A DNA stretch of 56,226 bases, counting the filler, from Dugesia japonica (Eukaryota): assembly GCA_001938525.1 (NCBI GenBank). It is 5 parts of 5 records of this genome, joined end to end, with 100 filler letters (N's around TTAATTAATTAA, not from the genome) between each part and the next. Parts side by side here need not be neighbours in the genome. Positions count along the whole stretch, not along the records: positions 33,628 to 46,368 come from MQRL01613114.1; 4 more parts are not named here. The stretch is one strand, 5' to 3'. Shown here piece after piece: positions 836 through 56,226 of the stretch. Each line of letters opens with the position of its first letter. The stretch's first letter is position 1. A program made the position numbers and the translations under genes. The notes below the pieces were generated by a model. That model saw only the letters and a program-made list of their open reading frames with translations. It was not told the origin of the DNA and ran no database searches.

Positions 836-1057
836 ATAATTATTTGAAAATGATTAATTTAAGATTTGTAATTGCATCAATAGATCTGCATATATTTAAA
901 AGTTTTTTTTCAAAAAAATTTAAATATGGTTTGTGAGAATAGAATTAGACAGTTAAATTTTTTGACATGAAATTTTTCGACTGAAATGTTTTAGTCTAAG
1001 TGGTTTAATTTTTTAAATTTGATGAATTTAAAAATAAATATATTATTAATATCATTA

Positions 1058-1124
1058 TTTTATACAATTATTGTGAGAATAATTGTTGGACTTAACCATT
1101 ATTCGCATTTGAGATTTCATTAAA
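1058..1124 (-). repeat. Copy of the short hammerhead-associated repeat (3' portion; runs into N gap)
   Basis: tacaattattgtgagaataattgttggacttaaccatt..cgcatttgagatttcattaaa matches the copies at 45383, 47721 and 51171. Confidence 0.85.
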
Positions 1125-1821
1125 NNNNNNNNNNNNNNNNNNNNNNNNNNNNNNNNNNNNNNNNNNNNNNNNNNNNNNNNNNNNNNNNNNNNNNNNNNNN
1201 NNNNNNNNNNNNNNNNNNNNNNNNNNNNNNNNNNNNNNNNNNNNNNNNNNNNNNNNCACAATAGATCTTTGTTACTCAATTCTTTAGATCTTATTGGATT
1301 TTTATTGGTTTATTTTAATTATGAATTTTTATTTTTAAATTAACTCTTAAAAATTTTAAATATTTTTTTTAAATTAAATTGAAAAGTTTTTTAAATGTTC
1401 AATTTTTAAGTTGTGTTTTCATATAATGTTCATATAATAGTGATTTTTAAAAACATTTTATTCGATTACAATTTTTACATATAAGAAATTTTGAAAAATG
1501 TTTTTCAAGTATTATATTATAATTAAAATTTTTAAAATTTTGTATTATTTTTAAAAATTTTTTNNNNNNNNNNNNNNNNNNNNNNNNNNNNNNNNNNNNN
1601 NNNNNNNNNNNNNNNNNNNNNNNNNNNNNNNNNNNNNNNNNNNNNNNNNNNNNNNNNNNNNNNNNNNNNNNNNNNNNNNNNNNNNNNNNNNNNNNNNNNN
1701 NNNNNNNNNNNNNNNNNNNNNNNNNNNNNNNNNNNNNNNNNNNNNNNNNNNNNNNNNNNNNNNNNNNNNNNNNNNNNNNNNNNNNNNNNNNNNNNNNNNN
1801 NNNNNNNNNNNNNTTTTTTAG

Positions 1822-2140
1822 AACATATTATTTATTGATATTGATATAAACTTCTTTTGAAAATTTTTTAATTATTGTAATTGTTGAACACCACATTAGT
1901 CTGACGTTTATCCTCTTTAATTAATATTATTTTCTTTAAATAAATATCACAGTAACATTACTCGTAATTTAAACGTGCAATATTTGATTTTATTCAAAAA
2001 TCCTAGAGATCAGTCTGTTGTTGATTTTCTAGCAAGACAAGCATATCCAAATAACAGGCAATCTCTTTATTAAATCATTTCAAGATGCCACAGAAAAACC
2101 ACATGGATATCTATTTCTTGACTTTACACAACAATGTCCA
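1822..2140 (+). pseudogene. Polinton A32/FtsK-like packaging ATPase, C-terminal remnant
   Basis: Reads NILFIDID (degenerate Walker B), HHISLTFIL, NLNVQYLILFKNPRDQSVVDFLARQAYPNN, then after a frameshift FQDATEKPHGYLFLDFTQ. Matches the Maverick ATPase pattern LNxxYxxLFKNPRD..LARQxYP..DATxxPxGYLxxD. Confidence 0.88.
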
Positions 2141-2492
2141 NNNNNNNNNNNNNNNNNNNNNNNNNNNNNNNNNNNNNNNNNNNNNNNNNNNNNNNNNNNN
2201 NNNNNNNNNNNNNNNNNNNNNNNNNNNNNNNNNNNNNNNNNNNNNNNNNNNNNNNNNNNNNNNNNNNNNNNNNNNNNNNNNNNNNCTAAAACGTCAAAAA
2301 ATATTTTTTGAGAAGAAAATGTATGGAAAAATGAAGAAACAATCGCATAAGAAATCTCATATAAATAAGAAGCAACGATTAAAAAAAAGGAATATATTTA
2401 AAAAACTTGCAAAAAAAAGTGGAAAGAAGCTGAGAATAATGAACGGAAAAACTATAAACAAATAAATAGTATAAATTATTTTAATAAATAAA

Positions 2493-2812
2493 GATGAAAT
2501 TACAAAGAAGCATTATGTTTTTACAGCTTTGATTAAATCATCAAAACCTTTTAAAATGAGAATTTTTCATCATTTCCACCATATGTTATAGATGATTTAC
2601 TTGAGATCATTATAAATATTGTTTGCGGTAATGTAGATTTGAGTGCAGCTAAAAATTAAACATTGAAAAAACAAAAAAAAACTTTATTAACGCTTGTATA
2701 CACAAAAAATAGAAATAGAATGAGACTAGTAATGAGCAATCAAGGAGGTAACTGTTTAGCAGCATTGTTACCAATTGCATTAGCTGCATTAGGCTTAACT
2801 CATTTCAAATAA
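2493..2812 (+). pseudogene. Small basic Polinton virion-core-like protein ending in QxGG plus an amphipathic helix
   Basis: VIDDLLEIIINIVCGNVDLS..*TLKKQKKTLLTLV...SNQGGNCLAALLPIALAALG resembles the conserved Polinton small ORF (NxLxGNVxL...HKxxLxxL...QxGGFLxxLLP). One frameshift and one stop. Confidence 0.7.
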
Positions 2813-2943
2813 ACAATGGTTGACTTTATAGCAGTATTATTAATAATTACACTAGACTTAATTCAAATGAACAATGGGTAAATTGCAATCATTACCTAAT
2901 TTTGAAATGAAATTTCCATCGAATTGACGAAACGGAGACAAAA

Positions 2944-3329
2944 ATGAAAACAATATAGACAAATCCAAAAACCCAGCATGTTTTCAAAGCGTAGAAAGGA
3001 TGATGAAATCAGCTCAAAAATCGAAAAGAAAGACAAAAAATAGTTATTGAGTTAACTAGCGTACAGTCTGAGCAAACCAATATTGAAAAACTAATATAAC
3101 AAAATCATATGGTATTTATGATTTATGCCTAATGGAGATGATTTTATGTACACAAATTAATAAAGATTACAAGTATTTTTTTATATTTATCGTTGTATTC
3201 AATAGATTTGTAAGAACTGCTACGTTTTTATCAAAGGAACTGAAATAAACAATACTATATAAACTGGTATGGATACGAAAACTAAGTTGGATATAAGAAT
3301 CACAAATAGTCAATCAAGACGAAATTCAA
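2944..3329 (+). pseudogene. Polinton retroviral-type integrase remnant with most of the catalytic core deleted
   Basis: N-terminal TNPKNPACFQSVERM, AYSLSKP, GIYDLC and NKDYKYFFIFIVVFNRF are joined almost directly to a chromodomain-end-like SWI*ESQI. These match YxPxxPxSF, AYTLHKP, GIDDLWQ, NKGYKYILTVIDVFSK and NSWI of Maverick integrases. Confidence 0.75.
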
Positions 3330-4276
3330 ATGAAATCAAATAATTTCTTTACAATTTTACCTAATAATAGTAATCCATTAGTTCATCCAAATAATACTGC
3401 TAGTAATTACATTGCTGAGCTTCAAAATCCAATTTACATGGATAGTAGTTGTGAAGTTGCAATGATGGATTTCACCTTTGTATATTCAGCCATGCCGATT
3501 TACAGTCAGTCTAGGATTGATTATGAATTAATTAAACTAATTGAGAAGGAACTAACAATTTTTGTTAACCATAAAGAAAATAAAGTTCTTTTAATTGTTA
3601 CTAGTAAAGACAAATATCAAAATAATATGGAAACACTTATACAATTAAAGAACGAAAATATGATATTTTTTAGTAGTTTTATTTAATTCCATAGTTTATC
3701 ATTTGATACTTTAGAAATATCGGAAAGATTTTCGTACGATGGAGCTTAAGTAACACAAACGGGTAATATTGTAAATCTTGATACTAGTAAACATATTGGT
3801 GATTAAACTTTTACTATTCGCTTTCATACATTTAAAAACTATGATTCCGTTGAACAAAGCCGTATTAAATATTAGTATGCCATTGTATTTATACATTATT
3901 TTTAATTTGAAACCGATTTGTATATAAAGGATTTAATACAACTAAATGATTATATTAAGAAAAACCTTTCAATGTTATTTAAAACGTTTTCATTGAAGCA
4001 AAATGACCTATTTAAATTTGCATTGTCAAATAAAACTAAAAGTTTGAAAAGAATCTTAAGATTCGATAGAATCTTAACAAAATCATTAGGATTAAAAAAT
4101 CACAATATTCTCCATTAAATTTTGGTGATGAACAACTACAATATGAAAGTATCAAGAAACCAAAGATTTCATATGTAAACAATATAGAAATCAATATACA
4201 TGATGATAGGGAAAACTATTCAATTTTGCTGAAGACTCAAAAACTCATTTAACGTTACATTTTAGAAACGTTAATA
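3330..4276 (+). pseudogene. Polinton minor capsid protein (penton), frameshifted
   Basis: N-terminus FFTILPNNSNPLVHPNNTASNYIAELQNPIYMDSSCEVAM and C-terminus NIEINIHDDR...THLTLHFR match the penton pattern FYxTLPSNSS..PxNT..F..L..PI.L...EV and IEIxIxDD..xTLHFR. Confidence 0.85.
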
Positions 4277-4720
4277 ATGAATCCTGATATTGTATCATTG
4301 TATAGTACAAGTCAAGCAGTTGGACAATTACCTTACTTTCTTGGAAAACAGTATGGATTTGGTTGGTTACGAACAATAGGTAGATTTGCTTTGCCTATTC
4401 TTAGACGCATTGGTTCTTTTGGTATGAGAACTGCTCAAGATGTACTAGGTAATGATGGAAAAATACTACCAATTTTTATATCTAATGTATTAGCAGAACT
4501 TGGAAATGTAGTTTCTTCCTTACTTAGTGGAGTAACCAGTATGATTTCAAAAGTAGCAAGCATATTACCACAAAGTATAACAAATAAAATACCGTCTGAA
4601 ATAAGCAATATGATAAAAAATCAGCACAAAGCACAACCAACTAATAAAAAACGTAAAAAAACACATGCATTGCGTATAAACAAACGAATGAGAGCACATG
4701 GAACAATATTTGGAAAATGA
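4277..4720 (+). CDS. Polinton PZ/pX-like core protein (intact 147-aa ORF)
   Basis: SQAVGQLPYFLGKQYGFGWLRTIGRFALPILRRIG matches Q.G..LP.F.G..Q.GxG..x..R.ALP.L. It has a basic C-terminus ending TIFGK, and its stop overlaps the capsid start (ATGA). Confidence 0.8.
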   Translation: MNPDIVSLYSTSQAVGQLPYFLGKQYGFGWLRTIGRFALPILRRIGSFGMRTAQDVLGNDGKILPIFISNVLAELGNVVSSLLSGVTSMISKVASILPQSITNKIPSEISNMIKNQHKAQPTNKKRKKTHALRINKRMRAHGTIFGK

Positions 4721-5878
4721 TTTGTGTTAAAACTGAATTATGTATTTTTGATCAACCACCTCCACAATTTATAATTGGAAGTGGTACTTTTAAAGATGTT
4801 TTTCCAATGAATTTGATTTCAGAATCACAAAGTGATGTAGAGTTCTTTATAAATGGATCTCAAACAAATATTTGGATTTGAATGACACTTTATTGTATAT
4901 TAAAGTGACGGTAGTTAATAAGGATGATAAAGATTTGACTGACACTCATGATGCGGTTCCTAATAATTATATGCTGCATATACTTTTTAAGGATGTTTAA
5001 TAATTTCAAAATTGAAAGTGGAAATAGATCTTATCTTCACAAAGCATTAACTGAAACTATAATAAATTATAACGGGGTTAGTAAGAATATCTGTCTTCAG
5101 CAATGGAATATAGTACGGAAACCGATAGAAAAAAGTCTATTAAAATATCAAAACAATTATCTCTTTTTGACTCATTGCAACTTAATTTCATGGATCAATT
5201 GAAATATTTTATTCCAAGTGTCATATTCGATTGAAAAGAGCATCATCTAAGATTTGTTTGGAATCTACAGCCAACGAACCTAAATATGTTTTACTAGATG
5301 CCAAATTAATAGTTAGACGTGTACGTGTTGAACCCTTAGTACTAGCTGCTCATCAATTTGGACTAAAAAGGCAAAATGCTATTTATCCGATAAGAACCAA
5401 AGAGGTTCTTGCATTTGTACTTAGTAAAGATAGTTCATCGTTTTATAAGGAAGAAATCTTTGGTGATCATCGATTACCTAGATTTATTCTGGTTACATTT
5501 CAAAGAGATGAACAATATAATGGTAGTTATAAAATCTCGACTTCAGCATTTCAAAATCTAGATGCTGTTTCTGTTTCCTGAATATCAAGAAATATATACT
5601 CAAGATTTTACAAAGCATCATTATGCCACAACATATATGCAATCTATAGTAAGAAATATGGGTTATTTGGATAAGAATATTAATTGTGGAATAACACTTA
5701 CTGATTTTAAGAATAATTATCTCTTTTTTTATATAAATCAGAGTCAATTACCTCAACAAGGAAATTTGAGATTGAATATTAAGTTTGCAAAGCTTTGACA
5801 TCATCAGCATATGTTCTCATTTATGGAGTATTTGAAAAATAAATTCAAATTTAAGACAATGGAACAGTATTGGTGTAA
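4717..5878 (+). pseudogene. Polinton major capsid protein (double jelly-roll hexon), frameshifted
   Basis: MICVKTELCIFDQPPPQ...VEFFINGSQ..YLDLNDTLLYIK...AIYPIRTKEV...IFGDHRLPRFILV...YNGSY...GNLRLNIKFA...VLIYGVFE. These are conserved Maverick MCP blocks (CxKSELDLF..PP.Q, YIDL.NT.L, A.YP, G.LRL..KF). Confidence 0.9.
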
Positions 5879-6885
5879 ACAGTCTTATGTATTCTTGAAA
5901 TAATTTCAATAAAGTAAGAGTTATTGTTTAATTTATTAGTTCTATTCATATTGAACGGAGTGCATCAATGTTTCTTGGATCAGCATATTTAAGAAAACAA
6001 TACCTTAATCGTCAATACTCATACAAAAAATCTATGTGGAAAAAATTAGATTGCTGTTTTACAATAAAATTCGATATCAAGATTCATTTACTGTTTATTA
6101 AAAAGATGCAACATTACAGATAAAATATTTATTTGCATGTAATTGTAGTATACAAAATATATGTTTTATTGACCAAAAAAATCTTTTTCATTTATTTTTC
6201 TTTACTGAGACGATAGAAAGATATTAATTTTCTATAATCCCATGTTATAATAAATTATTTTATGGAAATAAAAAGAAGTATTATTCTAATCTATTTATTA
6301 AACAATAAAGCAAAAATAATAATTACATCAATTCCGTCTAAACAAATAAAATAACGAATAGAGTTACAACAAAAAATTTAATTCTCTTTTAGCTCTTCAA
6401 TTCTTTCTTAATTTTGTCGATGAATATTGATCGGACAATGAGTTCAACATAGTCATGTTTACTCAAAAGATTATTGTTAATCCAGCTTAGGAATTGAATT
6501 TCGTCAACGGATCCACTGGTAATTGCATCTGACAATTTTTTAATTTCTTTTCCACTTGATTCATTTTGTCAATGGATCCATTAGTAATTGCATCTGGCAT
6601 TTTTAAATTTCTCTTTTTACATAATTCATATTTGATAATTATTTTGAATTGTAAAAGTGATTAATTTCACGAAAGCCACTCATTATATCCTCGTTACTAT
6701 ACATACTCGTTATTTTTTTAAATTTCTATGTTACCTGTTTAAAAGGAAATTATTAGTTGATATTTTTTATGATTGGTCATTTTGATACAAGTGACATCAT
6801 TCGCTATTTTTCGTTAAAATTGATATGATTTGTTAACGGATTTATAAGACTTGATTTTAATGACATTTTATTGTTTTTCAAAAAA

Positions 6886-7354
6886 ATGTCTATGTTTAGA
6901 AATTTATCGATGTTCAAACCAAGAGATGAACAAAATGAAAAAATTATGGAAGATATCCGGAATAGAAAATTAGAGGAAAATTAGAAGATCATATAGAATA
7001 AGAAATATCAACAGAAAACATCAATCATGAAGAACCAATACCTAATTATAACAAACTGGAAGTAAGTTATGAACATTAGGAACCAGTTAAAGATATTTTG
7101 GAGTTAAAAGATCATTTTTATGGTGAGAAATTTAATTAACAATAATTTATTTAATTTAATTTTTAGAACTATACACTCAAATAATGAATGAACGTTTTCC
7201 AGAATTTGTAGAATGCAATAATATGAATTCAGAACAATATTGGCGTCATGTTTTGATAACAACAAGCATTGATATTTATGAGCTTATAGATGATTTCATT
7301 TTAGAATTGGAAATGGAGTTTGGACATAACAGTAAAAAATTAAAAAGAAATTAA
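6886..7354 (+). pseudogene. Spliced acidic accessory gene of unknown function, next to the Polinton terminus
   Basis: ATG at 6886; a 44-bp phase-1 intron 7123-7166 (GTGAG...TTTTAG) joins ...LKDHFY to an open exon ELYTQIMNERFPEFVEC...EFGHNSKKLKRN*. Exon 1 has two stops and a frameshift. Confidence 0.5.
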
Positions 7355-7477
7355 AAAAATTTCAAAAGTTTTAAAAAAGATTTTCAAAAGAAAAGAAAAT
7401 AAAAAAAGAAAAAAAAATTAACTATCGAAAAATCTGATCTGATCATTTATATCTGAATCGATCAAAATTCTTAAATC

Positions 7478-7732
7478 CAAGATGGCTAGTAACGTATACA
7501 GTTGATGTAAGCACACAAACACAATGATCCTGACTAAAAAAATATTTTGTTTTAATCAATCGCAAAAATAAAAATAAACTTTAAATTTCCCGCCAAAATA
7601 TTTACATATTAAAACAAAACTACATATTCCTGCAACCAATCAATCAAATTAAACTCAAATTCAGACACCCCGCGCCCAGGGAGGGGATGCGCGATAACAC
7701 TTTTGTGTTTGCACTCACATCTACCTACTGCT
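7478..7732. promoter_or_regulatory. Probable Polinton terminal inverted repeat containing YY1, E2F, CCAAT and GC-rich motifs
   Basis: CAAGATGGC 7478-7486, TTTCCCGCCAAAA 7586-7598, CCAAT 7636-7640, GC-rich patch 7667-7693, imperfect internal inverted repeat 7504-7524/7703-7721, terminus at 7732. Confidence 0.55.
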
Positions 7733-9675: not shown

Positions 9676-11042
9676 CAGAGGCGTAGCTAGTGTGTTTGGC
9701 GCCCAGGGACAAGATTCATATTTTGCGCTTCCACCCACTGAAAAATTAAGAGTAACGTAATCCAATGTAATGGCTACAAAATAATTTCCTGTCGCTCCCC
9801 GTCCTTTCTTTAAAAAAATTTTTTATAATCCAAAATAAAAATAACATTTTAATTAAAGTAAAAATTGAACTAACTACGGAAGAACACACATAATATGCAA
9901 TAGTTTATGAAAATTATAGTTTATTAATGACAAAACAGAGTAGTTAAGGAAAGTTATAGTTTAGTACACACAAAAAATAGCAAGTTTATGAAATTAATAG
10001 TTTACTACTCACAGAAAAGAGACTTTTCTTGCCTTGTGGAAAGCAAATCGTGAAATTAAGTCATGCATATCTAAATTATCTAGGATTTCATGTTCAATTG
10101 AAATTATTGATATATTACTTGGACGTTCCTGGAGCATAGTTGATCTTAAATAATTTTTAATTATCCTTAATTTTGAAAACGATCTTNCACCTGTTGCGAC
10201 NGAGTTTGGTAATGTTAATAAAATTCTGGTCACAATAAATATATTTTGGAATGTTGCCTGAAGATCATTTTGTAAAATATATGATAATATATATTGAGGT
10301 TTAATATCTTCTTCTTTTAAAAATACCATTATAGTTTTTATCTCTTCGAATTAATCAATTCCATCAATATCGGACTCATTTCTTTGTTCGTCAGTTAATT
10401 TCAAATGCAAATCTTTGCAGCTTTGGAAAAGTATTTCCTCTGTTTCATCTTTAATATTATACATAAATTCAAATATATCATACAATTTTAGCGCTTCGAA
10501 GCTTGTTGTAATTGATACTAATGCTTGGTCTATAATGCAGAAATAAAAGTTAATTTTAAAATTTGCTTTTGGATCTAATATTGATTCATCCTTGCCTTCA
10601 TAATCAAAATTTGTGGGTTTTGTTCTTATTCTTAAACTTGTAACTTCTGGAAATTTAGGTTCTACGTGTAATTTTTTGGCTAATTCACTAGCTGATGTAA
10701 GCATTTTTTCAAATCCATTATCATTACGACAATTTTAAAAAGCTCCATTAAATAATCTAACGCGGTAACGCTTCTCTTGATATCGGTGTTTGGGTTCTGT
10801 AATATCTGACTAACAACATTAATTTTCATCAAAATTTCATGCCGAATAACAATGGAACATAAATAACGATAACTTGATATTTTTAGTGAAAGTAAATTTG
10901 CCACGTCTGGTTTTAAAGTCAATCAGTTGATCATTTGATATTTCAAGAAGAAATTTATATATTTGTTTAGTATGATACCTTAGTGGTTGGATGGCATCAA
11001 TTCTACTTGACCACCTTGTATCGCTCAGGGGTTTTAATTTTA
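9676..11042 (-). mobile_element. hAT transposon (ZMYM1-like transposase), 3' part, truncated at the linker
   Basis: Terminal CAGAGGCGTAGCTAG at 9676. Minus-strand LKPLSDTRWSSRIDA and the hAT dimerisation block RILLTLPNxVATGxRSFSKLRIIKNYLRSTMLQER, with frameshifts. Confidence 0.9.
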
Positions 11043-11142
11043 NNNNNNNNNNNNNNNNNNNNNNNNNNNNNNNNNNNNNNNNNNNNTTAATTAATTAANN
11101 NNNNNNNNNNNNNNNNNNNNNNNNNNNNNNNNNNNNNNNNNN
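11043..11142. other. Artificial 100-bp contig linker
   Basis: 44 N + TTAATTAATTAA (stops in all six frames) + 44 N. Confidence 0.95.
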
Positions 11143-28050: not shown

Positions 28051-33045
<4,995 letters not shown>

Positions 33046-33527
33046 TAATATTTTCAAATTATACCTAAGTAATTTTACGATCTTGAATTTATTAGCAAGT
33101 TATTTCGATTTTTCTTTTAATACTAAGGAAAGTTGATAATACATACTTAATAATCAATATTCAAAATGTAAAAAATTTATCAAAATATGATTCGATAATT
33201 CTTTTATATGTAAATATTAATTTCCAAAATTAGCAACAATTTCTATTGTAGGTGGTCTGGCACTATTTGTTGCACGTCGATTTAACATTTTGTTTATATT
33301 TTCAAGTATTTTTCATTAACATTTAACACGATTAAATTTGCTAAGCGTGTTGCGTGAATATTATTTGCTTAAACTAAAAAGTTTTCATTCAAGCATCTTG
33401 AACCGTCTGCTATTCGTATTTGAATTAAATGTTTAATCACATTTTTTAAGCATTCTGTCAGTCGACGAACTAATAACGTTTTCATTCTTTATTCCATATT
33501 GAATTTTACTTTAATTAATTATTGACA

Positions 33528-37959: not shown

Positions 37960-40900
37960 AGTTACAATATCCTTGTCCTCTATCATATTTCAATAACAAT
38001 TAAGATTAGAAACTTTATTAAATATAAATTATAGCGTTAATTCGTATTATTCAAAAAACGTTATTTCGAATTTCCATAACTCTCCCTTCCTTCAAAACGT
38101 TTTCCATCTTTTTAGCCATTCTATTCTTTTGGTTTTCAAACCATTTGGAAACTTGATTTCAACTTGATGTGCTTATATAAATCTCATTATCTGGTATGGG
38201 CCTTCATACAAACCGTTTTCTTTTGTTTGTGTGGTTCTACTCTGACTAATACCCAATCTCTCTCTTTGAAGTATCTCGATTATCTTTCTCGATATTTTCC
38301 ATTTTCCGCGCCGCATTCTCCAAATTCTGTGGCATTATCTCTTCTCTGTCCTTCCTTTTGAGAGCGTTTCATCTTTGGTATGCAGATTTATCTTTCGACC
38401 AAATACGATTTCGAAAGGAGAGAATTTTCTTGACTCTTGTATTGTAGCATTAATACTAACTTCTAATCTCGGTAATAATGTCTCCCAATCTTTCTCATTA
38501 CATTTCCCTTTTATCGATATCGTAATCATATCCCTCACTGTTCNGATCATCNGTTCTACCAAACCATTAGACTGGTGTTGATACGGGGAACTAAATTCCT
38601 GTACAATTCCAAATTTTCCTAGTTTCTTTGCCATCACTTGACTTTCAAACACTTTACCTCTGTCAGTATCCATTTGTTCAAAATTATCATTAAAATCGTC
38701 TCTTCATCCATTTTTGAAACTGTAGATAAGCTGACTAGTTTGCTAAAACGATCAATAATTACCACCATATATTTCTTTCCATACTTGCTCTGTTCCATAA
38801 AACCTATGTCCACTACGATTTGTTCTAAAAAATTTGGCTTCTCCTATGTATAAGTGTTTCTTTTGTACAACTTTCTTTTTGGCACACATCTCACATTTAG
38901 CAATACTTGTATTAATTGTCTTGGGCATCCCTGGCCAGAAATAAACATTTTGTAGGTATGAAAATAACTTTTTTCTTCCCAAATGACATAAATCTTCATG
39001 AATTTTTTTTATCACTTTATCAACTATGCTTGTTGGAACTACTAACAAAAATTTATTTCCTCTTTCCACTACTAACAAATCATTCACTATTTTCAATTCG
39101 TGCTTTAGTTTATTCCAGTAACTTTCTTGGTCACTCTTTTTAGTCTCTAAACCTAATTATTGCAACATTGCTACACAACTTTGCATTTCTGAATCTTCTG
39201 TCTGAGCCTGTCGAATCATTGTAATTATATCGGTCTCATGCTGAATTCCATCGATATGTTTCACTCTCGCCTTTTCTCATTTTGCGCCTATGTGTTTCAT
39301 GCTACATTGTGAACATAAACTTGCCTTTAGCCTCGACAACCCATCCGCAATGTTGTGTTCTTCGCCTGTTCTATACTTGAGTTCAAAATTATACTCTTCT
39401 AAATTCGCGGATTGTGGACTGATTGGTTTCTTTGTGTTGTTTAGAAACACCAATGCTTAGTGATCCGTTCTTACTAGAAATCTCTTTCCATACAGATATT
39501 GTTTGAATTGTTGTACGAATTCGTGTATAGCTAATAGTTCATTCCTTGTCACACAGTATCCTTTTTCATGAGCTGTCAAATGTTTTGACCCATACTAAGG
39601 ACTGTACTGATAGCCCCAAAACTAGCATCAGTGTCTAAAATGAACATCCAATCCTCTCTGGGATATTTTAATACTAGAGCACTACATAGCTTGTCTTTGA
39701 ATGCATTGAAACTGTTCTGGCATGCTTCTGTCCAAACTAATGGTTTGTTGCAACCTTATGTTGCTTCATATAAAAGAGCTGCTATCTTTGCATAATCTTT
39801 TATGAAAAGTCTGTAGTAGTTTGTTAGTCCGAGAAACGAACAGAGTTTTGAAGAACATTCTGGAACTATAGCATTCTTAATCTCCTGAATCTTAACTCCA
39901 TTAGTGCGTATACTAGTTGCACTAACTGTATGTCCCAAGTATAACACTTATTTCTGATAAAACTTACATTTCTCTGGGTTTATTCTTAACCCCGAGTCTC
40001 TGATCCTGTAAAAGACTGTCTCTAAAATTTTGTTATGTGATCCTCCAAAGTTTTTCCGTACACCAGAATATCGTCCAGATATACAATAACTCCTTTGAAA
40101 ATTAATTCCTCCAATATCTCGTGCATTAACTTTTGAAAAGTGGCCGGTGCTGTAGCTAATCCAAAAGGCAATCGGTTAAATCTGAATTGGTCTTCCTTTG
40201 TACTGAAAGCAGTGACATCCCTTGAATTTTCTGATAAATCCACTTGGTAATAAGCTTGGCCCAGATCAATCGATGAAAATAATTTTGAACAAGATAAACA
40301 ATCTAATAACAACTGAATGTCTGGCATTGGAAAAGAAACTTTTTCTGTTCTCAAATTCACTTGTCTGTAATCCACGCACATTCTTATCGAGCAATTTTTT
40401 TATCCACAATCAAAAATGGGGAATTCCAAGAACTATTACAATTGCTGATTACACTAATCGTTGCTAATTCTTTAATCATATCTTCAATTTTCTTTTCTAA
40501 ATGCATCGGCTGTCTTCTAGGGTGCTGCACTATTGGATCTACTTTAACCTTAATTTCATGTATTACTTTTCTCGTATGCCCAATATCGAACTTTGAAGCC
40601 ATGAATATCTCACCAAAATTCTGGATTAACTGAACCAGTTTTCTGTTATCTATTCCTTTAAACAATTTCAACGCGTTATTTTGTCTATCTTCATCAGAAT
40701 GTGTTATCTTCAGACTCTCATTTTCGATGTTATTTATTTTTGTTAATTTCACTCTAAAACGTTGCATTGTATCAATACCGCCTATTAATTCTGGGTGGAT
40801 CTGTCTAACTATGATGACTTTAACCTTTCTGACATTCTTGTTCCATTGTATAGTTAATTCTGCTATACCCAACCGTTTTTCTCAGTCCTTATTAGATGCC

Positions 40901-41640
40901 CCATTTAACCTGATATTAAACATCGACAACAACGGCTTTCCAATTTTAATCCAATAGTTTTCACTCATGACTGTCACCGAAGCTCCTGAATCCCACAGCA
41001 TCTCTAACTTTACTCCATTAACATATACTCTACTCCAATCTCGCCCATCTTCTTTTTCAAACTTCTCTCCTCTTTCATCATTTCGATTAATTTTATCTTT
41101 TTCTATACTCACTCCATCGACGAAGTGTAAGCAATGGAATCGTTCTTGTTTTTTCCCATTACTATACCATGATCTGTCACGCTCTCATAGTCTTCTTTAG
41201 AATCGTCCAATTTCTCTTAAATACACAAAATTTTAGTGTTTCTTCTACTAGACGAACCCTATACAATCGAACAAGATCTAAAATTATGACCAGACTTGCC
41301 GCAAATTAAACATCTGTCTTTTAATGAGCATTGGTATCGTTTATGCCCATGTTCTCCGTAGCAATAACATTGTCTGTCTTGGAATTTTTCTTCACGAGGT
41401 TCTGGAAATCTTCTCTGTCTATTAAAATAATATCTTGCCAAATATTGGCATGGATACTCTTCGTTTCTGTTGATGCTGTTGATTTTTTACCGCATTTACC
41501 CTTTTTGGCGTGGTTGCCAGTTAAAATATTCTTGTACTCAATCATATTTCAATAACAACTACAATTAGAAACTTTATTAAATATAAATTATAACATTAAT
41601 TCGTATTATTCAAACAACGTTATTTCGAATTTCCATAACT
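37960..41640 (-). mobile_element. LTR-bounded Ty3/Gypsy retrotransposon (decayed, gag largely deleted)
   Basis: 122-bp LTRs AGTTA...TAACT at 41519-41640 and 37960-38081 (10 mismatches by eye), perfect 5-bp TSD ATCAC, PBS TGGCAACCACG, PPT GAAGGAAGGGAG. Domains: two CCHC knuckles, protease LWDSGAS, RT YLDD, RNase H FILDTDAS, integrase and GPY motif. Confidence 0.95.
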
Positions 41641-41657
41641 ATCACCAACCTTGAATT

Positions 41658-41779
41658 TCATTAAAATAATGAAAACGCATCGATCAAAATCAAATTTATT
41701 TGTAAAGAAATTCAAATTTTCGACAATAGTCTTCTTCAGGAAAATCCAACAATTATTCTCGCAATAACTGTAATTATAA
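41658..41779. mobile_element. Hammerhead-associated repeat copy with 5' inversion and 11-bp TSD
   Basis: TSD aaccttgaatt at 41647-41657 and 41780-41790. Minus-strand UUC-CUGAAGA-A-GAC-UAUU-GUC-GAAA-AUUU-GAA at 41711-41742, then the opposite-orientation 3' end. Confidence 0.8.
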
Positions 41780-42599
41780 AACCTTGAATTATCTTTTAGT
41801 CAATATCTCTTTATTTTGTTCTTTGAGAATTTTTCGTACCATTTTTATCTGCTTATTCTCTTTCCAAATACGATTTGACACAAAAAAATTTTCGACTAAT
41901 CAAATCACTGGAAACATCTGTGAGCCCAATCAAATTGCAGCCTAAAAAAAATTTTACCCCGTTACCACGACACAGTGAACAAAAAGCATAAGTCTGAAGT
42001 AGTTATATCACCAGTGTTTTTAGCCGGTAGAGTCCAACAATACCCTAATTTATTCATGGTATAAGCGAAAATACCGCATCTTCTCACTAGGAGGAAGAGA
42101 TTTGTAAAGAAATATTAAAAATTTCTCTGTCGTGTGCAGAAAAAACTTTTTAATCATCATGTAAATTTTATCACTTTTTAAGTGAGCGACTTAACTATTT
42201 ACTTTTTATTGCAACAAAAAAAACAATCACTATTAACTATTTACTTAAACACGCTTCTTATCAACTATAAGACTTTTAAGTTTCAATAGCTAATTGTTTA
42301 ATAAATAATATATTGCAATATTAATAACACAATTGAAATCTGCAAAATGAAATCGATAGCAAATTGATTTCCAACGGCTTTGTAAATAGAATTCTGGGGG
42401 CAGTGTGAAGTATACTATAATTTANAATATATCACGATTTATTTGAATTACAACCTTTTAGTTATTATATATACTCATAGATTATAATTATGACCTGTAT
42501 AATTTACAAAACGCCGACGAATTACGTTTAAATATAAACAAAATATAAGCAATTGAAAATCTTTCACTTATATTAAAATTTCCTATTTCTCGAGAAAAC

Positions 42600-43403
42600 A
42601 TTTATTTATTCAGCACAACGGAAAACCTAACACATCTTTGAAGACTCGAAAAATTTACTGGAACTTAGTTGGAATTTGCTGCCACAGTAGATGGATAGTG
42701 GTGCACTGGAACACCCCCCAAGGAAAAATATTTTTGTGTGAGTGTGTGTGTAAGTGTACTCGATTGCACTGTGGAGTTATTGATTTGCACTATTTTGGTT
42801 GTTTTATGATATCGGNNNNNNNNNNNNNNNNNNNNNNNNNNNNNNNNNNNNNNNNNNNNNNNNNNGTTTGTCCTAGAAGTGTGGTTGTGCCCAAACACAG
42901 GCGTATGAGTTATCGTGGGGAGATTTTTTAAGATTTATTTGAAATTTTTCTAACGGGTGGGCAAATCAATAACTGCACAGTGCAATCGAGTACACTTGCA
43001 CACTTACACAATTTTTTTTAATTACCTAAAAAAATGGAGAAAAAATCGGCCGAAAAAATGTTTTTCCCTGGGGGGGTGTTCCAGTGAGCCACTATCCATC
43101 TACTTGCCACATCCTCCATATCGTTTTTATATGGCATCATCAGACTACTATCTTTATCGGTATCAGCAAAACTCTAAGACTCGAAAACCTTTATCTCAAA
43201 TGACAGTATAATACCAGGAAGTATTTTTGGCGGAACTAAATTAGAAATTTATAAAAAAGCAATCATGATATTGACTGAGAGATAGCAACAAATTTTCGTT
43301 AATAATGACCAATATGTTTTAAAACAAAAATAAAATTTTTGTATTTAGAAATTGGATTTTTTTTTAATAGTAAAAACCGAAAGAATTTTTCGGGCAATCT
43401 AAT
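42600..43403 (+). mobile_element. Mariner remnant (3' half plus TIR) interrupted by a mini-element
   Basis: FIQHNGKPNTSLKTRK..ELSWNLLPH^PPYRFYMASSDYYLYR (cf. DNARPH..GWEVLPHPPYSPDLAPSDYYLFR). Ends aaaccgaaagaatttttcgggcaatctaat. Confidence 0.8.
42686..43104. mobile_element. 419-bp non-autonomous element with Polinton-type ends (AGT...ACT, 6-bp TSD)
   Basis: Termini AGTAGATGGATAGTGG / CCACTATCCATCTACT, long imperfect TIRs (~42686-42790 vs 42957-43104), perfect TSD TGCCAC at 42680-42685 and 43105-43110. Confidence 0.8.
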
Positions 43404-43769
43404 GGTAATTAAAAATTAACGTAAATTTCTTTATCGATTATTATTGTTAGCAAGCATCTCTAGGAATATTCAAAATTAAATAAATTTATAAAGCACAATA
43501 TATAATTTAATTTTTCAAAAATGGAAATTAACAGTAATTAAAAAAATAAAATAATAGTTTATAGTATTAAACAGGTAATTTCTGATTTGTTAATAACAGT
43601 AATTATTAGTTATTTGATCTCAAAAATACAATGTAACTAATAATAATAATTAAAATTAGAATATATGACGATTTTCACACGAATCAAGAATTCAGACCGA
43701 ATTTTATTTTGTATAAATGTTTGAACTACAGATTAAATTACTGTTACAATTAATGAATTATTATTATTA

Positions 43770-45382: not shown

Positions 45383-45533
45383 GGTTTTATAATTACAATT
45401 ATTGCGAGAATAATTGTTGAACTTAACCATTGATCGCATTTGAGATTTCATAAAAATAAAGTAATAGCTTCGATCAAATTAAATTGTTGTTTTATGGATA
45501 TTTAAATGTTCGACTACTGTCTTCTTCAGGAAT
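45383..45533 (-). repeat. Longest colinear copy of the hammerhead-associated repeat
   Basis: Minus strand AUUC-CUGAAGA-A-GAC-AGUA-GUC-GAAC-AUUU (GAAA mutated), continuing to the conserved 3' end ...caacaattattctcgcaataattgtaattataaaacc. Confidence 0.8.
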
Positions 45534-47640: not shown

Positions 47641-47720
47641 TTATGGTTGCTTTTCGTTTTATTTCTTTCTTTGGTTTATTCTCTCTTTTGGTGAGTGTTT
47701 CACCCCAACAGTTGTATTAA

Positions 47721-47833
47721 TATAATTACAATTATTTTGAGAATAATTGTTGGACTCAACCATTGATCGCATTTGAGATTTCATTAAATTAAAATCTTCG
47801 ATCAAAATATTGTTTTCTTTTTTATATTTTTGT
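47721..47833 (-). repeat. Hammerhead-associated repeat copy (core region lost in the N gap)
   Basis: tataattacaattattttgagaataattgttggactcaaccattgatcgcatttgagatttcattaaa..cttcgatcaaaat. Confidence 0.85.
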
Positions 47834-49650: not shown

Positions 49651-51171
49651 ATAGAAATGATTATCAGTTTTTATCATTATAAAAAAGAGCAACCACGAAA
49701 AAATCAAACAGTAATATTTCGATTTTATGTCACATAATTTAATATTGTTCCAGTCCTAATTCCAGTCTTGGCCATTCATTCCCAAGAAAGATCAAACTGA
49801 CTATTGCTCCCAATGAGTTGAAAATTAAAGTTACACTTCAAAAGTTTTGATGAATGATTTCGAATTGCAAATTGAGCTCCATCCATAACATAAAATTGAA
49901 TTACAAGGAAATATTTTTAATCGATGATGCCTCCTCCTTTATTCGTCCAAAAGAGTATTATGTTAAAGCTCCTTCGTGAGTGTTTGACAGAATGAATCTG
50001 GTTTATAAATTTATTTTTTAGCACAATAAAACTTTAGTAAAAAATGATTAATTAATTTAATGAATATTTTAAAACTAAATTACGATGCGAAGTAAAGTTA
50101 AATAATGAAATAACTAATGATCGATAAAATGAAGAAAAGTTGTATTTCTGAATTGTTTTTTTTGTGATATACCATTCCAGTAAGATTAAATAAAGAAAAA
50201 ATATAGTGACAAGGTTTAATGAATCTCTAAATGATAACTTTTTAATATGAATACGAAACGAAGCAAATATTACCACTGAACAAATCAACGAATGTTTATT
50301 GTCAATAAAATAGAGTACTTGACTTATGGTCAAGTAAATAGAGTAATAAAATAGTTCCTAAGTTGTCTCTTATAAGGCAAACTCAGTAGGATTATAACAA
50401 ATCAAATATACAATAGGAATGATTAATGAATCTTTGGATGAATATTTTAAATAATTAAGGAACGAAATAAATCTTAATAATGAACAACATACGAATAATT
50501 AGAATTTAAAAAATTAACAAAAATGTTAACCACAAATTGTTACTGTAAAGTAAAGATGCAGTATTTAATAAAGTAAATAAAACAGCCTCTCACTTAAACT
50601 TTTGTAGAAAATTAAATAAATCCATCAAAGTGAATTGAAGGAATTTAGAATTTATAATTTAATTTAATAAATTAGTAACGCGTTTTAATAACATATTTTG
50701 TTATTTCTCTTAAAGGAATTGACCATTTTTAATTTAATGAAATAGTTCAATAACATATTTTGAGATTGATTTTGTGCACAGTATTTGTTATGGCAACAAG
50801 TGAGCGACTTGCAAGGTAGTCTGGTATTTTATATAGTATAAATTGAAATAATCGAATTTCAGATATCGGTAGTAATAGAAGGGAAATATAATGATGAGAA
50901 TATAATGTAAAATTAATTTTAATTTTGGATTTCGGCTTAACGGAAAATAATAGTTGCATTACATTGATTCTTCATTCTCGTCTTAAATTTAATTAGGCAC
51001 GTTGGGAAATTCTTATTTAGTTATTAAAATATTTTAATTTCCATTTAATATTAAATGCAACCGTAAAGATTTTTAAGTTAAATACGATTAATAATATTTT
51101 ATGTAATTATAACTTTAATTTGGTTTACATTTTAAATAACTTTTTAGCTAATTATAAATTAATTTTAGTGT

Positions 51172-51341
51172 TTTATAATTACAATTATTGTGAGAATAAT
51201 TGTTGGACTTAACCATTGATCGGATTTGAGATTTCATTAAAATAAGATAAGGCTTCGATCAAAATAAAACAAAATTTGAACTTTTTTACAAATAAATTTT
51301 GTTTTGTTTTGATCGAAGCCCTATCTTATTTTAATGAAATC
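51172..51341. mobile_element. Fold-back copy of the hammerhead-associated repeat with a 12-bp TSD
   Basis: TSD taattttagtgt at 51160-51171 and 51342-51353. Inverted duplication agatttcattaaaataagata.ggcttcgatcaaaa / ttttgatcgaagcc.tatcttattttaatgaaatct. Confidence 0.85.
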
Positions 51342-52962: not shown

Positions 52963-54665
52963 TAATTTGATAGTAAAATTTAAAAAAAACGAAATATTTG
53001 AATGTTTATACAACATTGTCGGAATTAATTTTGCTTGATCAGATAAATATATAATGTCTGAATTAATGTTAGAATTAAAATTTTATACAAGATTAATGTC
53101 AAATTAATATCAATGATCATATACAGAATTACCAGAATAATATAATTCAATAAAATCACATTGATAGAATGAGATCACAATTAAATGTTTGTGTATTAAT
53201 AAATCGATTTTGATTCGTCGAAATTACTTAGTCCTTCTTGATGGAATAAACTATAGCAACTAAGGCGTTATTATAAATTAGTTCGAGATATAGTTTAATG
53301 AAGTTAACTCGAATATATAACTATATACAGGTATAATTGGCATGTGATGGATTTGTGCTTCTCATAAATAAATAACTACTTTTTAAGAAAACTTGAAAAA
53401 ATAAAATCTCAGATTTTGTCATTGCAAGTACAAAGCAATTTTTACTTTCTAATCGCACGATCATTTCATCGAGTCCTTTGTAATAAAGCAAAAAATTTTA
53501 GGGTGAAAACTCCAGTTTGCAACTCTTTATTTAGTAAAACAGGCACTCATGCACGTGTCGGTGTTTATTCAAAATTCATTAATTTTTACATTTTGATAAA
53601 TATTTACATTAAAACTATTTAACTTATAATAAATTATTTACATTAAAATATAATATGTTTGCTTAATTTATTTTGAGAAAAATAAATTTTAATTATTTAT
53701 ATTATGCCGTTATATTAAATTAGAATAAACTTTATTTTAAAATAAAGCTTTGATTATAATTTACCTTGATAATTGACCTTATAAAATAATTCCAGATTAT
53801 TGACTGATAATATAAGTTAACCTCATAAATTTATATAATTATTAATGAAGAATTACAAATACACATTGAAATCGAAATTTTAAAACTAAAAATAACAATA
53901 ACAAATTATTGGTAAAATGCGATTTGTGATCAAAATAATGTCTTGATTGTAAACATAAATATAAGATCTAAATTGAATTGTCATAGATAACAATGAATTG
54001 AATAGAAAAAATTATTTGGATATCGCGTCGAGTTATCTTCTAATAGTGCACATCGAAGAATGTTTTGTTATTGTTATTATTATTTTGTGGTGATTATTTA
54101 TTGTTATAAATGCATTATTTGAGTTATTCAGTGTTATGTCATTTCTTGCTTGTTATTATTATTTATGTATATCCGTGTAGAGCATGCTTGTTCTAGATTC
54201 TTAACAGATTGATAATATCTTCACGATTGTTTGATCACTAATTAGTTTCACAGTTCTGAGACATTGTTGAGTTCGAATGTTATCCTATGTATTATTGGTA
54301 TGATTATAATAACCTTCTCGAATATTATCTAGTATATGTGAAATAAATATCGCTTCCAACCAAAATTTTCGAATATTCATTCATTTTAAATCACTCATTT
54401 GAATATTTTTCACAATATTCAAATAATTTAAAAAGATATTTTTCGCGATTTTGTCAGAAATTTCTGTTTTTGCTCACGTGTCAACTGATTAATAATTTAC
54501 CTGCTCTTTTAAATCAGATTTTTGAATCAATAATTGTTGAGGCTTCCAGCACGACAGATGAAGATTTTAACAATAGCTAAAATTAATTATAGTAAGTATA
54601 ATAAATGTTGACTTCACAGTTTAAGTTAGTTATTAACTTGTAACAGACTTCACTGAAGAATATAT

Positions 54666-56226
54666 ATGTATACAAAAGAACAAGAAAGATTGGTTTTATG
54701 CCTTCTTGATGAGGATTTGGTAGAAGATTTAGTTAAAACAGCGAAGAAAACAGATGGTTTTCAGGCACGTTTGAGATTGACCTTTGAAAAAGAAAAAGAT
54801 ATTATTCACGAGTTACAGAACTTGGTAGATTTGAAACGGGATAATATNNNNNNNNNNNNNNNNNNNNNNNNNNNNNNNNNNNNNNNNNNNNNNNNNNTAA
54901 GGTGCTGGTATGGGGGTCTGAAAACAGAAAAGTAAAATAAAAGGTAGTATTGCGGAAATTGGAAACTCCGGAGGAAATTAAGGAATAACTAGTTCTACTA
55001 GATTGAGTAGAGAAGAAAAGAGAGCAAATTAACATGATACATAGTTACGAGAGAGTAGTGAGTACTCAGAAAACGGAACCAAGGCGAGNNNNNNNNNNNN
55101 NNNNNNNNNNNNNNNNNNNNNNNNNNNNNNNNNNNNNNNNNNNNNNNNNNNNNNNNNNNNNNNNNNNNNNNNNNNNNNNNNNNNNNNNNNNNNNNNNNNN
55201 NNNNNNNNNNNNNNNNNNNNNNNCCTAAGTATAGATTGCTCACAAAGAGAAGAAAAGACATGTTTTGGATGCTAGATATGGGACACACGAGAAAAGAGTG
55301 TAAGAAAGAGAGATGTTTTCAATGTAGTAGGACCGGTCACAGAGCATCAGGGTGCCGAGAATATAAAAAAAGAAGCATAATTGAAGATAGACAAAATGGA
55401 AAAAGGAACAGAAAAATCGATATGGTTATTGTATTGAAGTAGAAACACAAGAAGAACGAGATTGACGAGAAGATGAGATAAGCGAGCATGGATCACAGAT
55501 ACTTTACACAAATGAGAGGGCTCCACCAAGGGAGGAAGTGGTTGGAGCCATTTATTATAAAATTCAATCAAAGAAGGTCAACATGAGTAGAAAAGTGGGA
55601 AAATAGAGAGAGAATCTATGAGAAAATATATAGTTTTCTGAAGAAAGAGAAATTTCATGCGGATTATGTTGAGGAGTGGGGACGGAGTATTGTCAGGAGG
55701 TCAACAAGTAGAAATAAGTTTCGATAAAATGCTGAACCGGCCGAGTATAACAATAATTATTGGTGGAGTTGTGATGGAATGTATTTTAGATACGGGAGCT
55801 CGTATTAATGTGATTAACGAGTTATGCTTAGAGAAATGGCCTTAAGTAAAAGTGGAACCTAGTGGGTTAAAGTTACATTGTGCAAATGGTAGTGGTTTAA
55901 ATACTAAAGGAAAGATACGATTGGAAGTTTAGCTGAGAGAGAAAAGAACAGAAGTTGAATTTATAGTAGTGGAAAGTGTGTATTCAGATGTTATTGGAGG
56001 AATAAATTTTCATCACATTTTTGGGTTTCAACTTAAGAGAGAAAGTAAAGAAAATGTAGAAATTGTAAGGAGAGAATTGATAGAAAACATTGAAGCAAGA
56101 TTTTGTAGGGAAGCGGCAGAAGTAGATAGATGGGAAAGAGTGAAAAAAACGACAGGTATTTTAGATGAAATTAAATTACAAGCGATTTGCAAGAGGTAAG
56201 TAAATGTTTTTATGGCGTCGAAATTG
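54666..56226 (+). mobile_element. Second decayed Ty3/Gypsy element (gag to protease), running off the window
   Basis: Gag remnants, knuckles CFGC..MGHTRKEC and CFQCSRTGHRASGC, protease CILDTGARINVI and VIGGINF, with many stops. Confidence 0.85.

What the first reader, a model, noticed from the sequence alone, without database searches (positions are those of the whole stretch)
42680..43110. Miniature element with Polinton-type ends (mini-Polinton MITE)
Seen: 419 bp, AGTAGATGG...CCATCTACT termini, TIRs over 100 bp, an exact 6-bp TSD (TGCCAC), and no recognisable coding content. It is inserted cleanly in the LPHPPY motif of a mariner, so the empty site can be reconstructed. Established: AG...CT ends with 6-bp TSDs are the Polinton integrase signature. 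Inference: it is a tiny parasite of a Polinton/adintovirus that keeps only the replication and integration ends. Its TIR differs from the 7.7-kb terminus beyond the AGTAG start, which suggests a second Polinton lineage.
Basis: partly seen in the sequence, partly recalled or inferred. Interest (0 to 1): 0.7.

Follow-up and report, generated by a model that had tools for sequence, protein, structure and literature searches.

The report
Tiny non-coding element with Polinton-type ends
A real, roughly 420-base, gene-less jumping element sits inside a decayed mariner transposon in what is probably a flatworm genome; its ends and 6-base insertion scar point to the integrase of the large virus-like Polinton elements, but whether this short form moves by itself is not shown.

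Summary
The element is real: 42686-43104, AGTAG...CTACT ends, exact TGCCAC repeat on both sides, inside a mariner-like remnant. Corrections: 50 of the '419 bp' are an unreported N gap (one contig crosses it with about 53 letters), and the TIR is two blocks (46/51, 41/43) with unequal spacers. Contigs from three deep runs show a multi-copy family with varied flanks; the boundaries shown include the terminal A/T, which favours AG..CT with a 6-bp duplication over the 8-bp reading; one paralogous mariner has exactly the empty-site length. AG..CT plus 6 bp fits Polintons better than the other 6-bp families I could check. A decayed Polinton lies at 1921-5875 and its presumed end (7729) is the best of 65 AGTAG sites against the mini terminus over 30 nt, so a 'second lineage' is not shown. 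No gene-carrying element with this TIR was found. Related contigs leave and enter this copy at 42921-42928, so it looks like a deletion derivative of longer members. Best reading: a non-autonomous Polinton derivative inserted in trans; that the short form itself transposed is untested. Non-autonomous Polintons are known; only the MITE size is unusual.

The parts
42680..42685 (+). left copy of the 6-bp target-site duplication TGCCAC
   Evidence: 6/6 match only for AGTAG..CTACT ends
42686..42735 (+). left outer TIR block, begins AGTAG
   Evidence: 46 of 51 columns identical to the right block, first 16 exact; 19 contigs of run X3 have unrelated flanks before 42686
42746..42788 (+). left inner TIR block
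   Evidence: 41 of 43 identical to 42961-43003
42789..42960 (+). non-coding interior, 172 positions including the gap
   Evidence: multi-copy by contig depth
42816..42865 (.). assembly gap of 50 N inside the element
   Evidence: crossed by one X3 contig with about 53 letters; 20 (X1) and 23 (X3) contigs agree (0.79-0.80) on the letters before 42866
42921..42928 (.). probable deletion junction with short overlap: related contigs leave rightwards behind 42928 and enter from another sequence before 42921/42925
   Evidence: loose ends in X1 (26 and 13 contigs), X8 (24 and 13), X3 (18 behind 42928); X9 record 27 (169 nt, 42875-43043, 3 differences) crosses it. That it is a deletion junction is inference.
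42921..42961 (.). segment shared with a far more abundant repeat
   Evidence: summed depth 32,600-37,200 in bin 42903-42945 in X1, X8, X3 against about 11 for single-copy contigs; 13 X1 contigs leave behind 42961
42961..43003 (-). right inner TIR block
43054..43104 (-). right outer TIR block, ends CTACT
   Evidence: 20 contigs of run X8 have unrelated flanks behind 43105
43105..43110 (+). right copy of the 6-bp target-site duplication
42590..43210 (+). decayed mariner-like transposase remnant interrupted by the element (approximate limits)
   Evidence: reading frame; by-eye likeness to the SETMAR segment printed; multi-copy and one paralogue of exactly empty-site length. Direct database tests of the short pieces were negative.
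1921..5875 (+). decayed Polinton gene block: ATPase, small ORF, integrase N-part, unassigned ORF (probably minor capsid, inferred from position), core-type ORF, major capsid, with stops and frameshifts; no match to the relatives' long polymerase-type ORF in the window
   Evidence: colinear tblastn hits to metagenome loci L022, L023, L025, L026, L030; Pfam on L030/L026 gives Pox_A32 and rve; capsid relative falls with DJR-like clusters
7700..7729 (-). presumed right terminus of the decayed Polinton (AGTAGG start read inward); its left end and TSD were not found

Best explanation
A non-autonomous, gene-less member of a multi-copy TIR family that uses Polinton/Maverick machinery in trans. Shown: AG..CT ends, a 6-bp duplication at this site, insertion into an older mariner, many other copies of the ends in varied flanks, decayed Polinton in the same window. 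Inferred: the short form arose from a longer family member by an internal deletion joined at 42921-42928, kept both end blocks, and was inserted by a Polinton retroviral-type integrase, whose staggered cut 6 bp apart left TGCCAC twice. Whether it was first copied by the protein-primed polymerase as a short linear DNA or simply cut and pasted by the integrase is open; I put the integrase-only route slightly ahead (about 60:40) because the end lacks a clean (AGT)2 or (AG)3 repeat.
For: Ends and exact 6-mer. Other copies: flanks diverge before 42686 (19 contigs, X3, agreement 0.45) and behind 43105 (20 contigs, X8, agreement 0.49), i.e. the terminal A/T belong to the element. One paralogous mariner joins 42677 to 43129 with 26 letters, the exact empty-site length. 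Both junctions are in run X8, of another study than the best-matching run X1 (records 19, 20, 22). Polintons have 6-bp TSDs (PMC10045372 passages; PMC8097293 passages) and AGT/AG-starting ends; the other 6-bp families in those passages, IS3EU and GingerRoot, end TA..TA or TG..CA, Ginger1/2 end TGT with 4-5 bp TSDs. A Polinton remnant is in the window and its presumed end ranks 1 of 65 AGTAG sites and 2 of 4223 AG sites against the mini terminus over 30 nt.
Against: No element with this TIR and pPolB, integrase or capsid genes was found: 21 IMG/VR 16-mer matches stop at 16-17 nt, 0 metagenome matches, 0 of 16 related Polinton loci match, though none of them includes a recognisable end. Only one TSD could be read. 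The end (AGTAGA) does not match the (AGT)2, (AG)3 or (AC)3A motifs of vertebrate Mavericks. Against the 7729 end it has 2 mismatches in 11, failing Repbase's 1-mismatch rule; at 11 nt 5 of 65 AGTAG sites score as well, at 21 nt 2 of 65, and shuffle P values were 0.076, 0.016 and 0.069; 7729 is itself only a presumed end. No contig spans the whole element, so no second short copy is shown; table 7 showed 24 of 857 rows. A second mariner paralogue across the site had 32 letters where 58 were expected.
Confidence: 0.45

Rival explanations
1. Same Polinton-type family, but the element inserted as a longer copy and lost its interior afterwards; the 420-bp form is a one-off relic, not a mobile miniature.
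For: Most related contigs do not follow this copy through 42921-42928 (18-26 contigs per deep run leave behind 42928); arms have unequal spacers; most Mavericks in vertebrate genomes are eroded fossils (96%, PMC8097293 passage); the window's own Polinton shows no match to the relatives' long polymerase-type ORF.
Against: The junction form is present, with 3 differences in 169 nt, in the very small run X9 that lacks the single-copy flanks, a weak hint that it is multi-copy; the library type of X9 is unknown.
Confidence: 0.25
2. A MITE of a cut-and-paste DDE transposon unrelated to Polintons that also leaves 6-bp duplications (an IS3EU/GingerRoot-like element with unusual ends, a hAT subgroup with 6-bp TSDs [recalled, no call], or an unclassified family).
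For: Size, TIR layout and high copy number are ordinary for MITEs; no Polinton partner found; the end deviates from published Maverick end motifs.
Against: IS3EU and GingerRoot end TA..TA or TG..CA; Ginger ends TGT with 4-5 bp TSDs; TAG..CTA ends give no short TSD here; resemblance to the neighbouring Polinton end.
Confidence: 0.2
3. The ends are mis-set: GTAG..CTAC with an 8-bp TSD (7/8), or one base wider with a 4-bp TSD (4/4) and a mismatched terminal pair.
For: Both fit this single site and give the same empty site; the right-hand loose ends shown sit behind 43105, one base beyond the 6-bp boundary.
Against: Loose ends shown begin before 42686, not 42687, and behind 43105, not 43103; the consensus base before 42686 is not the complement of 43105, so that base is not fixed. 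AGTAG..CTACT is the outermost complementary pair of ends. The 43105 offset is explained if contigs whose next base is T are placed at the right end (inference).
Confidence: 0.05
4. The short length is an assembly artefact: a long element collapsed across the 50-N gap or two arms mis-joined.
For: Gap inside the element; no contig spans the whole; several 50-N gaps in the window sit in repeats.
Against: One contig crosses the gap with about 53 letters and 20-23 contigs agree on its right part; both outer junctions and the inner junction are in other runs; matching TSDs on both sides.
Confidence: 0.05

Closest known systems
Polintons/Mavericks (animal 'adintovirus'-type elements)
   Same: AG-starting inverted ends and 6-bp TSD (PMC8097293 passages; PMC10045372 passages; anole Polinton with 6-bp TSD, PMC3014272 passage); TIR span within the 46-1,447 bp range given for vertebrate Mavericks.
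   Different: About 0.42 kb instead of 13-25 kb; no pPolB, integrase, ATPase, protease or capsid genes; end is AGTAGA, not (AGT)2 or (AG)3; TIR bipartite.
Named non-autonomous Polintons: Polinton-1N1_DR (zebrafish), Polinton-N1A_NV (Nematostella)
   Same: Dependent elements filed under Polinton; names seen in passages of PMC9341505 and PMC11296320.
   Different: Polinton-N1A_NV still has a capsid gene; I could not see the lengths or ends of these entries, so no direct comparison was possible.
MITEs of DDE cut-and-paste superfamilies with 6-bp TSDs (IS3EU, GingerRoot)
   Same: Short, non-coding, TIR-bounded, multi-copy, 6-bp TSD.
   Different: Their ends are TA..TA or TG..CA; this element ends AG..CT.

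Membership tests
Polinton/Maverick (autonomous) | protein-primed PolB and rve integrase genes | tested here: not met
   no stop-free stretch over 50 codons in the sequenced arms; gap about 53 nt
Polinton/Maverick (autonomous) | virion module (ATPase, protease, capsids), 13-25 kb | tested here: not met
   about 0.42 kb, non-coding
Non-autonomous Polinton | 6-bp TSD | tested here: met
   6/6 at this locus; boundary supported by other copies; TSDs of other copies could not be read
Non-autonomous Polinton | AG..CT termini with TIRs | tested here: met
Non-autonomous Polinton | published 6-bp end motif (AGT)2, (AG)3 or (AC)3A (vertebrate Mavericks, PMC8097293) | tested here: not met
   end is AGTAGA, 5 of 6 to (AGT)2; the window's presumed Polinton end (AGTAGG) also departs at position 6; the motif list is for vertebrates
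Non-autonomous Polinton | terminal 11 nt match a classified member with at most 1 mismatch (Repbase rule, PMC4455052) | tested here: inconclusive
   9 of 11 against the decayed, presumed end at 7729; intact ends of this genome's Polintons were not available
Non-autonomous Polinton | an autonomous Polinton in the same genome shares the TIR | not testable with these tools
   no genome held; 0 of 16 related metagenome loci match but they lack ends
MITE (mobile miniature family) | many copies of the same short, uniform unit at different loci | tested here: inconclusive
   ends are multi-copy with varied flanks, but interiors diverge at 42921-42928 and no contig spans a whole copy
IS3EU / GingerRoot | TA..TA or TG..CA termini | tested here: not met
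   ends AG..CT against the passage
Ginger1 / Ginger2 | TGT termini, 4-5 bp TSD | tested here: not met

The most novel reading that the evidence does not exclude
A self-amplifying, sub-500-bp satellite family of a Polinton: a gene-less unit that is copied by the helper's protein-primed polymerase and inserted by its integrase at many loci, and so marks out the minimal cis-signals (the 50-bp outer and 43-bp inner end blocks) for Polinton replication and integration.
Probability: 0.25. Interest if true: 0.62.

Novelty: new member of a known kind. Interest (0 to 1): 0.35.

Why it matters
Polinton replication and integration are known almost only from sequence. A naturally selected 0.4-kb unit that still moves would show which end sequences the integrase and polymerase need, and would show that Polintons breed MITE-like parasites as cut-and-paste transposons do. 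As it stands, the evidence is one well-supported insertion of a multi-copy family with Polinton-type ends; the helper and the mobility of the short form are not shown, and the family may already be listed in Repbase or Dfam, which could not be searched.

Tried and rejected
No whole genome is held, so copies could not be collected. IMG/VR scan with the terminal 16-mer: 21 matches, all unrelated beyond 16-17 nt. Metagenome scan with a 22-base terminal pattern: 0. Viral-contig scans with the capsid piece and with alignment A1: no relative confirmed. Sixteen metagenome Polinton loci: no match to the mini arms or to the 7729 end, no terminal repeats captured. No left TIR or TSD found for the window's Polinton. 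Folding the arms as single-stranded DNA: z 0.59, -0.21, -0.39, nothing beyond shuffles; the whole element was not folded because of the gap. Rfam: 0. Mariner identity of the flanks by database: Pfam 0 of 2 pieces, PDB hits were to repeat proteins with per-domain E above 40 and were rejected, tblastn with other window mariner pieces gave nothing significant, protein search with the 19516-19782 piece gave 0; the label rests on motif likeness to the SETMAR segment printed and on the loose end before 42615. The large ORFs of L030 and L026 got no PolB hit in Pfam or PDB; they are called polymerase-type from size, position and DFES/DTDS words found with recalled motifs. The abundant repeat that shares 42921-42961 has no second copy in the window. 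Summed contig depth suggests on the order of a hundred copies of the ends, but the tool states that it is no copy number, so I do not rely on it. Earlier scan findings: none by place, sequence or the first word search. Kapitonov and Jurka 2006 (PMC1450207) is not held; supplements of PMC8969392 held no mention of Polinton, Maverick or hAT6.

Full report
1. The observation. The element runs from 42686 to 43104 and is bounded by AGTAGATGG and CCATCTACT, with TGCCAC directly outside each end. The terminal 16 nt are an exact inverted pair; this 16-mer occurs twice in the window with up to 3 mismatches, against 0.18 expected, and 0 of 100 shuffles reach 2. A generic 6-mer match of the flanks has a chance of about 9e-4. 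The element is 40% G+C against 23-28% in its flanks. Fifty of the 419 positions (42816-42865) are N, one of 8 runs of exactly 50 N in the window. The TIR is in two blocks, 46 of 51 and 41 of 43 identical, with spacers of 10 and 50 nt. No coding content was found: longest stop-free stretch 50 codons in the sequenced arms, no Pfam or Rfam hit.

2. The insertion site. Without the element and one repeat the flanks read ...WNLLPHPPY... in one frame. The flanks are too short and decayed for a database hit; the mariner label rests on likeness by eye to the SETMAR segment printed and on contigs of related copies whose loose end before 42615 reads like that segment. One related contig joins 42677 to 43129 with 26 letters, exactly the length left when 425 bases (element plus one repeat) are removed; another, from 42645, has 32 where 58 were expected, and for most such joints the letters between are not known.

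3. Other copies. No genome is held, so I laid contigs of four public runs of organism A, from four studies, on 42430-43700. X1 may be the source of the assembly; X8 holds both junctions (records 19, 20, 22, with 2, 0 and 3 differences). Loose ends with low agreement, i.e. many different flanks, lie before 42686 (19 contigs, X3) and behind 43105 (20 contigs, X8); 24 of 857 rows were shown. The 8-bp reading (GTAG..CTAC, 7/8) predicts 42687 and 43103, and a 4-bp reading (4/4, mismatched end pair) predicts a fixed base outside the A; neither is what is shown. So AG..CT with a 6-bp duplication is the best fit, though only this one TSD was read. The gap is crossed by one X3 contig with about 53 letters (30 aligned letters on the left, 12 differences, so perhaps a paralogue), and 20-23 contigs agree on its right part: the element is probably about 0.42 kb. 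The interior is not uniform: 18-26 contigs per deep run leave this copy behind 42928, and 13 enter it from another sequence before 42921 (X1, X8). I read 42921-42928 as a deletion junction with a short overlap (inference). X9 record 27 crosses it with 3 differences in 169 nt, so it is not an assembly error. No contig spans a whole copy, so a family of uniform 0.42-kb units is not shown.

4. The helper. The window holds a decayed Polinton: 1921-5875 is colinear with metagenome loci L022-L030 that encode a Pox_A32-type ATPase and an rve integrase, a capsid that groups with double-jelly-roll clusters (Pfam DJR-like on 15% of the first cluster) and a 1,100-1,300-residue ORF with DFES and DTDS words (no PolB hit). 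Its presumed end at 7729 begins AGTAGG. Against the mini terminus it matches 9 of 11 bases and 17 of 21 columns; over 30 nt it ranks 1 of 65 AGTAG sites and 2 of 4223 AG sites in the window, over 21 nt 2 of 65, over 11 nt it is equalled or passed by 4 others; shuffle tests after the shared AGTAG gave 0.076, 0.016 and 0.069. This is modest support for kinship and does not support a clearly separate lineage; it also misses Repbase's 1-mismatch rule (PMC4455052, passages). No long element with the mini's TIR was found, but none of these collections is a eukaryotic genome set and the 16 related loci lack ends.

5. Mechanism. Shown: ends, one TSD, multi-copy ends, insertion into an older element, a Polinton remnant nearby. 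From papers: Polintons use a retroviral-like integrase and a protein-primed PolB (PMC6431247, passages), leave 6-bp TSDs (PMC10045372 and PMC8097293, passages; bioRxiv 2023.08.22.554363 gives 5-8 bp, passage) and in vertebrates end in (AGT)2, (AG)3 or (AC)3A. Inferred: a longer dependent member lost its interior, kept both end blocks, and was inserted by the integrase of a helper (0.45). Rivals: the same, but the loss came after insertion (0.25); a MITE of another 6-bp DDE family (0.20; IS3EU/GingerRoot and Ginger ends do not fit); mis-set ends (0.05); assembly collapse (0.05). Taken together, a Polinton origin is about 0.7.

6. What is known. Dependent Polintons are named in print (Polinton-1N1_DR, PMC9341505, one passage; Polinton-N1A_NV, PMC11296320, passages; Tlr1 viewed as non-autonomous, PMC5499653, passage; PolB-less active polintons, bioRxiv 2025.02.07.637071, passages). 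The anole paper reports no non-autonomous copies (PMC3014272, passages). Polintons are piRNA targets in the planarian Schmidtea mediterranea (PMC8532177, passages); the host here is a probable flatworm and is not identified. In the listings, and the passages read from them, I saw no description of a sub-500-bp Polinton derivative; I read no paper whole, the founding paper is not held, bioRxiv supplements are closed, and Repbase and Dfam, where such a family could well be listed, could not be searched. PMC5753468 and bioRxiv 2024.01.15.575659 were seen as passages and added nothing on this point. Earlier unchecked notes of this scan describe 4-14 kb dependent Mavericks in other genomes, which suggests that dependence is common and lowers the surprise; I did not test them.

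7. Verdict. Observation partly confirmed, interpretation partly supported. A new member of a known kind, unusual only in size; interest 0.35. If a uniform, mobile 0.42-kb family with a Polinton helper is shown (about 0.25 for the full version with polymerase copying), it would deserve about 0.6.

Noticed in passing
L030:2420-2869 and L026:2175-2621: Two metagenome Polinton-like loci both carry a TBP (TATA-binding protein)-like ORF upstream of the packaging ATPase (Pfam TBP E 5e-18 and 2.3e-17); L030 also has a ubiquitin-conjugating-enzyme-like ORF at 222-719. Only these 2 of 16 loci were checked.
   Followed up: partly
window 42921-42961: A 40-bp piece of the element's interior is shared with a repeat of far higher depth (about 34,000 against 11) that continues into other sequence on both sides; its nature (satellite, other MITE, tandem array in long members) is unknown.
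   Followed up: partly
window 42686 and 43105, loose ends: The flank consensus has G three bases before the left end and C three bases after the right end, in otherwise A/T-rich flanks: a weak hint of a target preference (agreement only 0.45-0.49).
   Followed up: no
window 1921-7729: Decayed Polinton, colinear with gene-carrying relatives from ATPase to major capsid, with only the N-part of the integrase and no polymerase match; an E2F-like word (motif recalled) lies at 7586, 1 of 2 in the window.
   Followed up: partly
window 32722-33048: Kinase C-terminal exon (Pfam Pkinase_C); its only relatives with an organism name are from the tapeworm Mesocestoides corti at 62-64% identity, which points to a flatworm host. 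That it is a planarian is my guess.
   Followed up: partly
window 10009-11094, 13035-13301, 17223-18288, 19513-19782, 38335-41548, 54657-56199: Other transposon debris: hAT-like, mariner-like (19516-19782 matches SETMAR, E 1e-6), Penelope/GIY-YIG-like and gypsy-like pieces (RVT_1 at 40025-40399); the other labels are by eye.
   Followed up: no
window 1053-1133, 41655-41742, 45384-45532, 47717-47797, 51170-51250, 37959-38084/41518-41643: Dispersed repeats that look like LTR pieces around the gypsy-like element (families D5, D10, D17).
   Followed up: no
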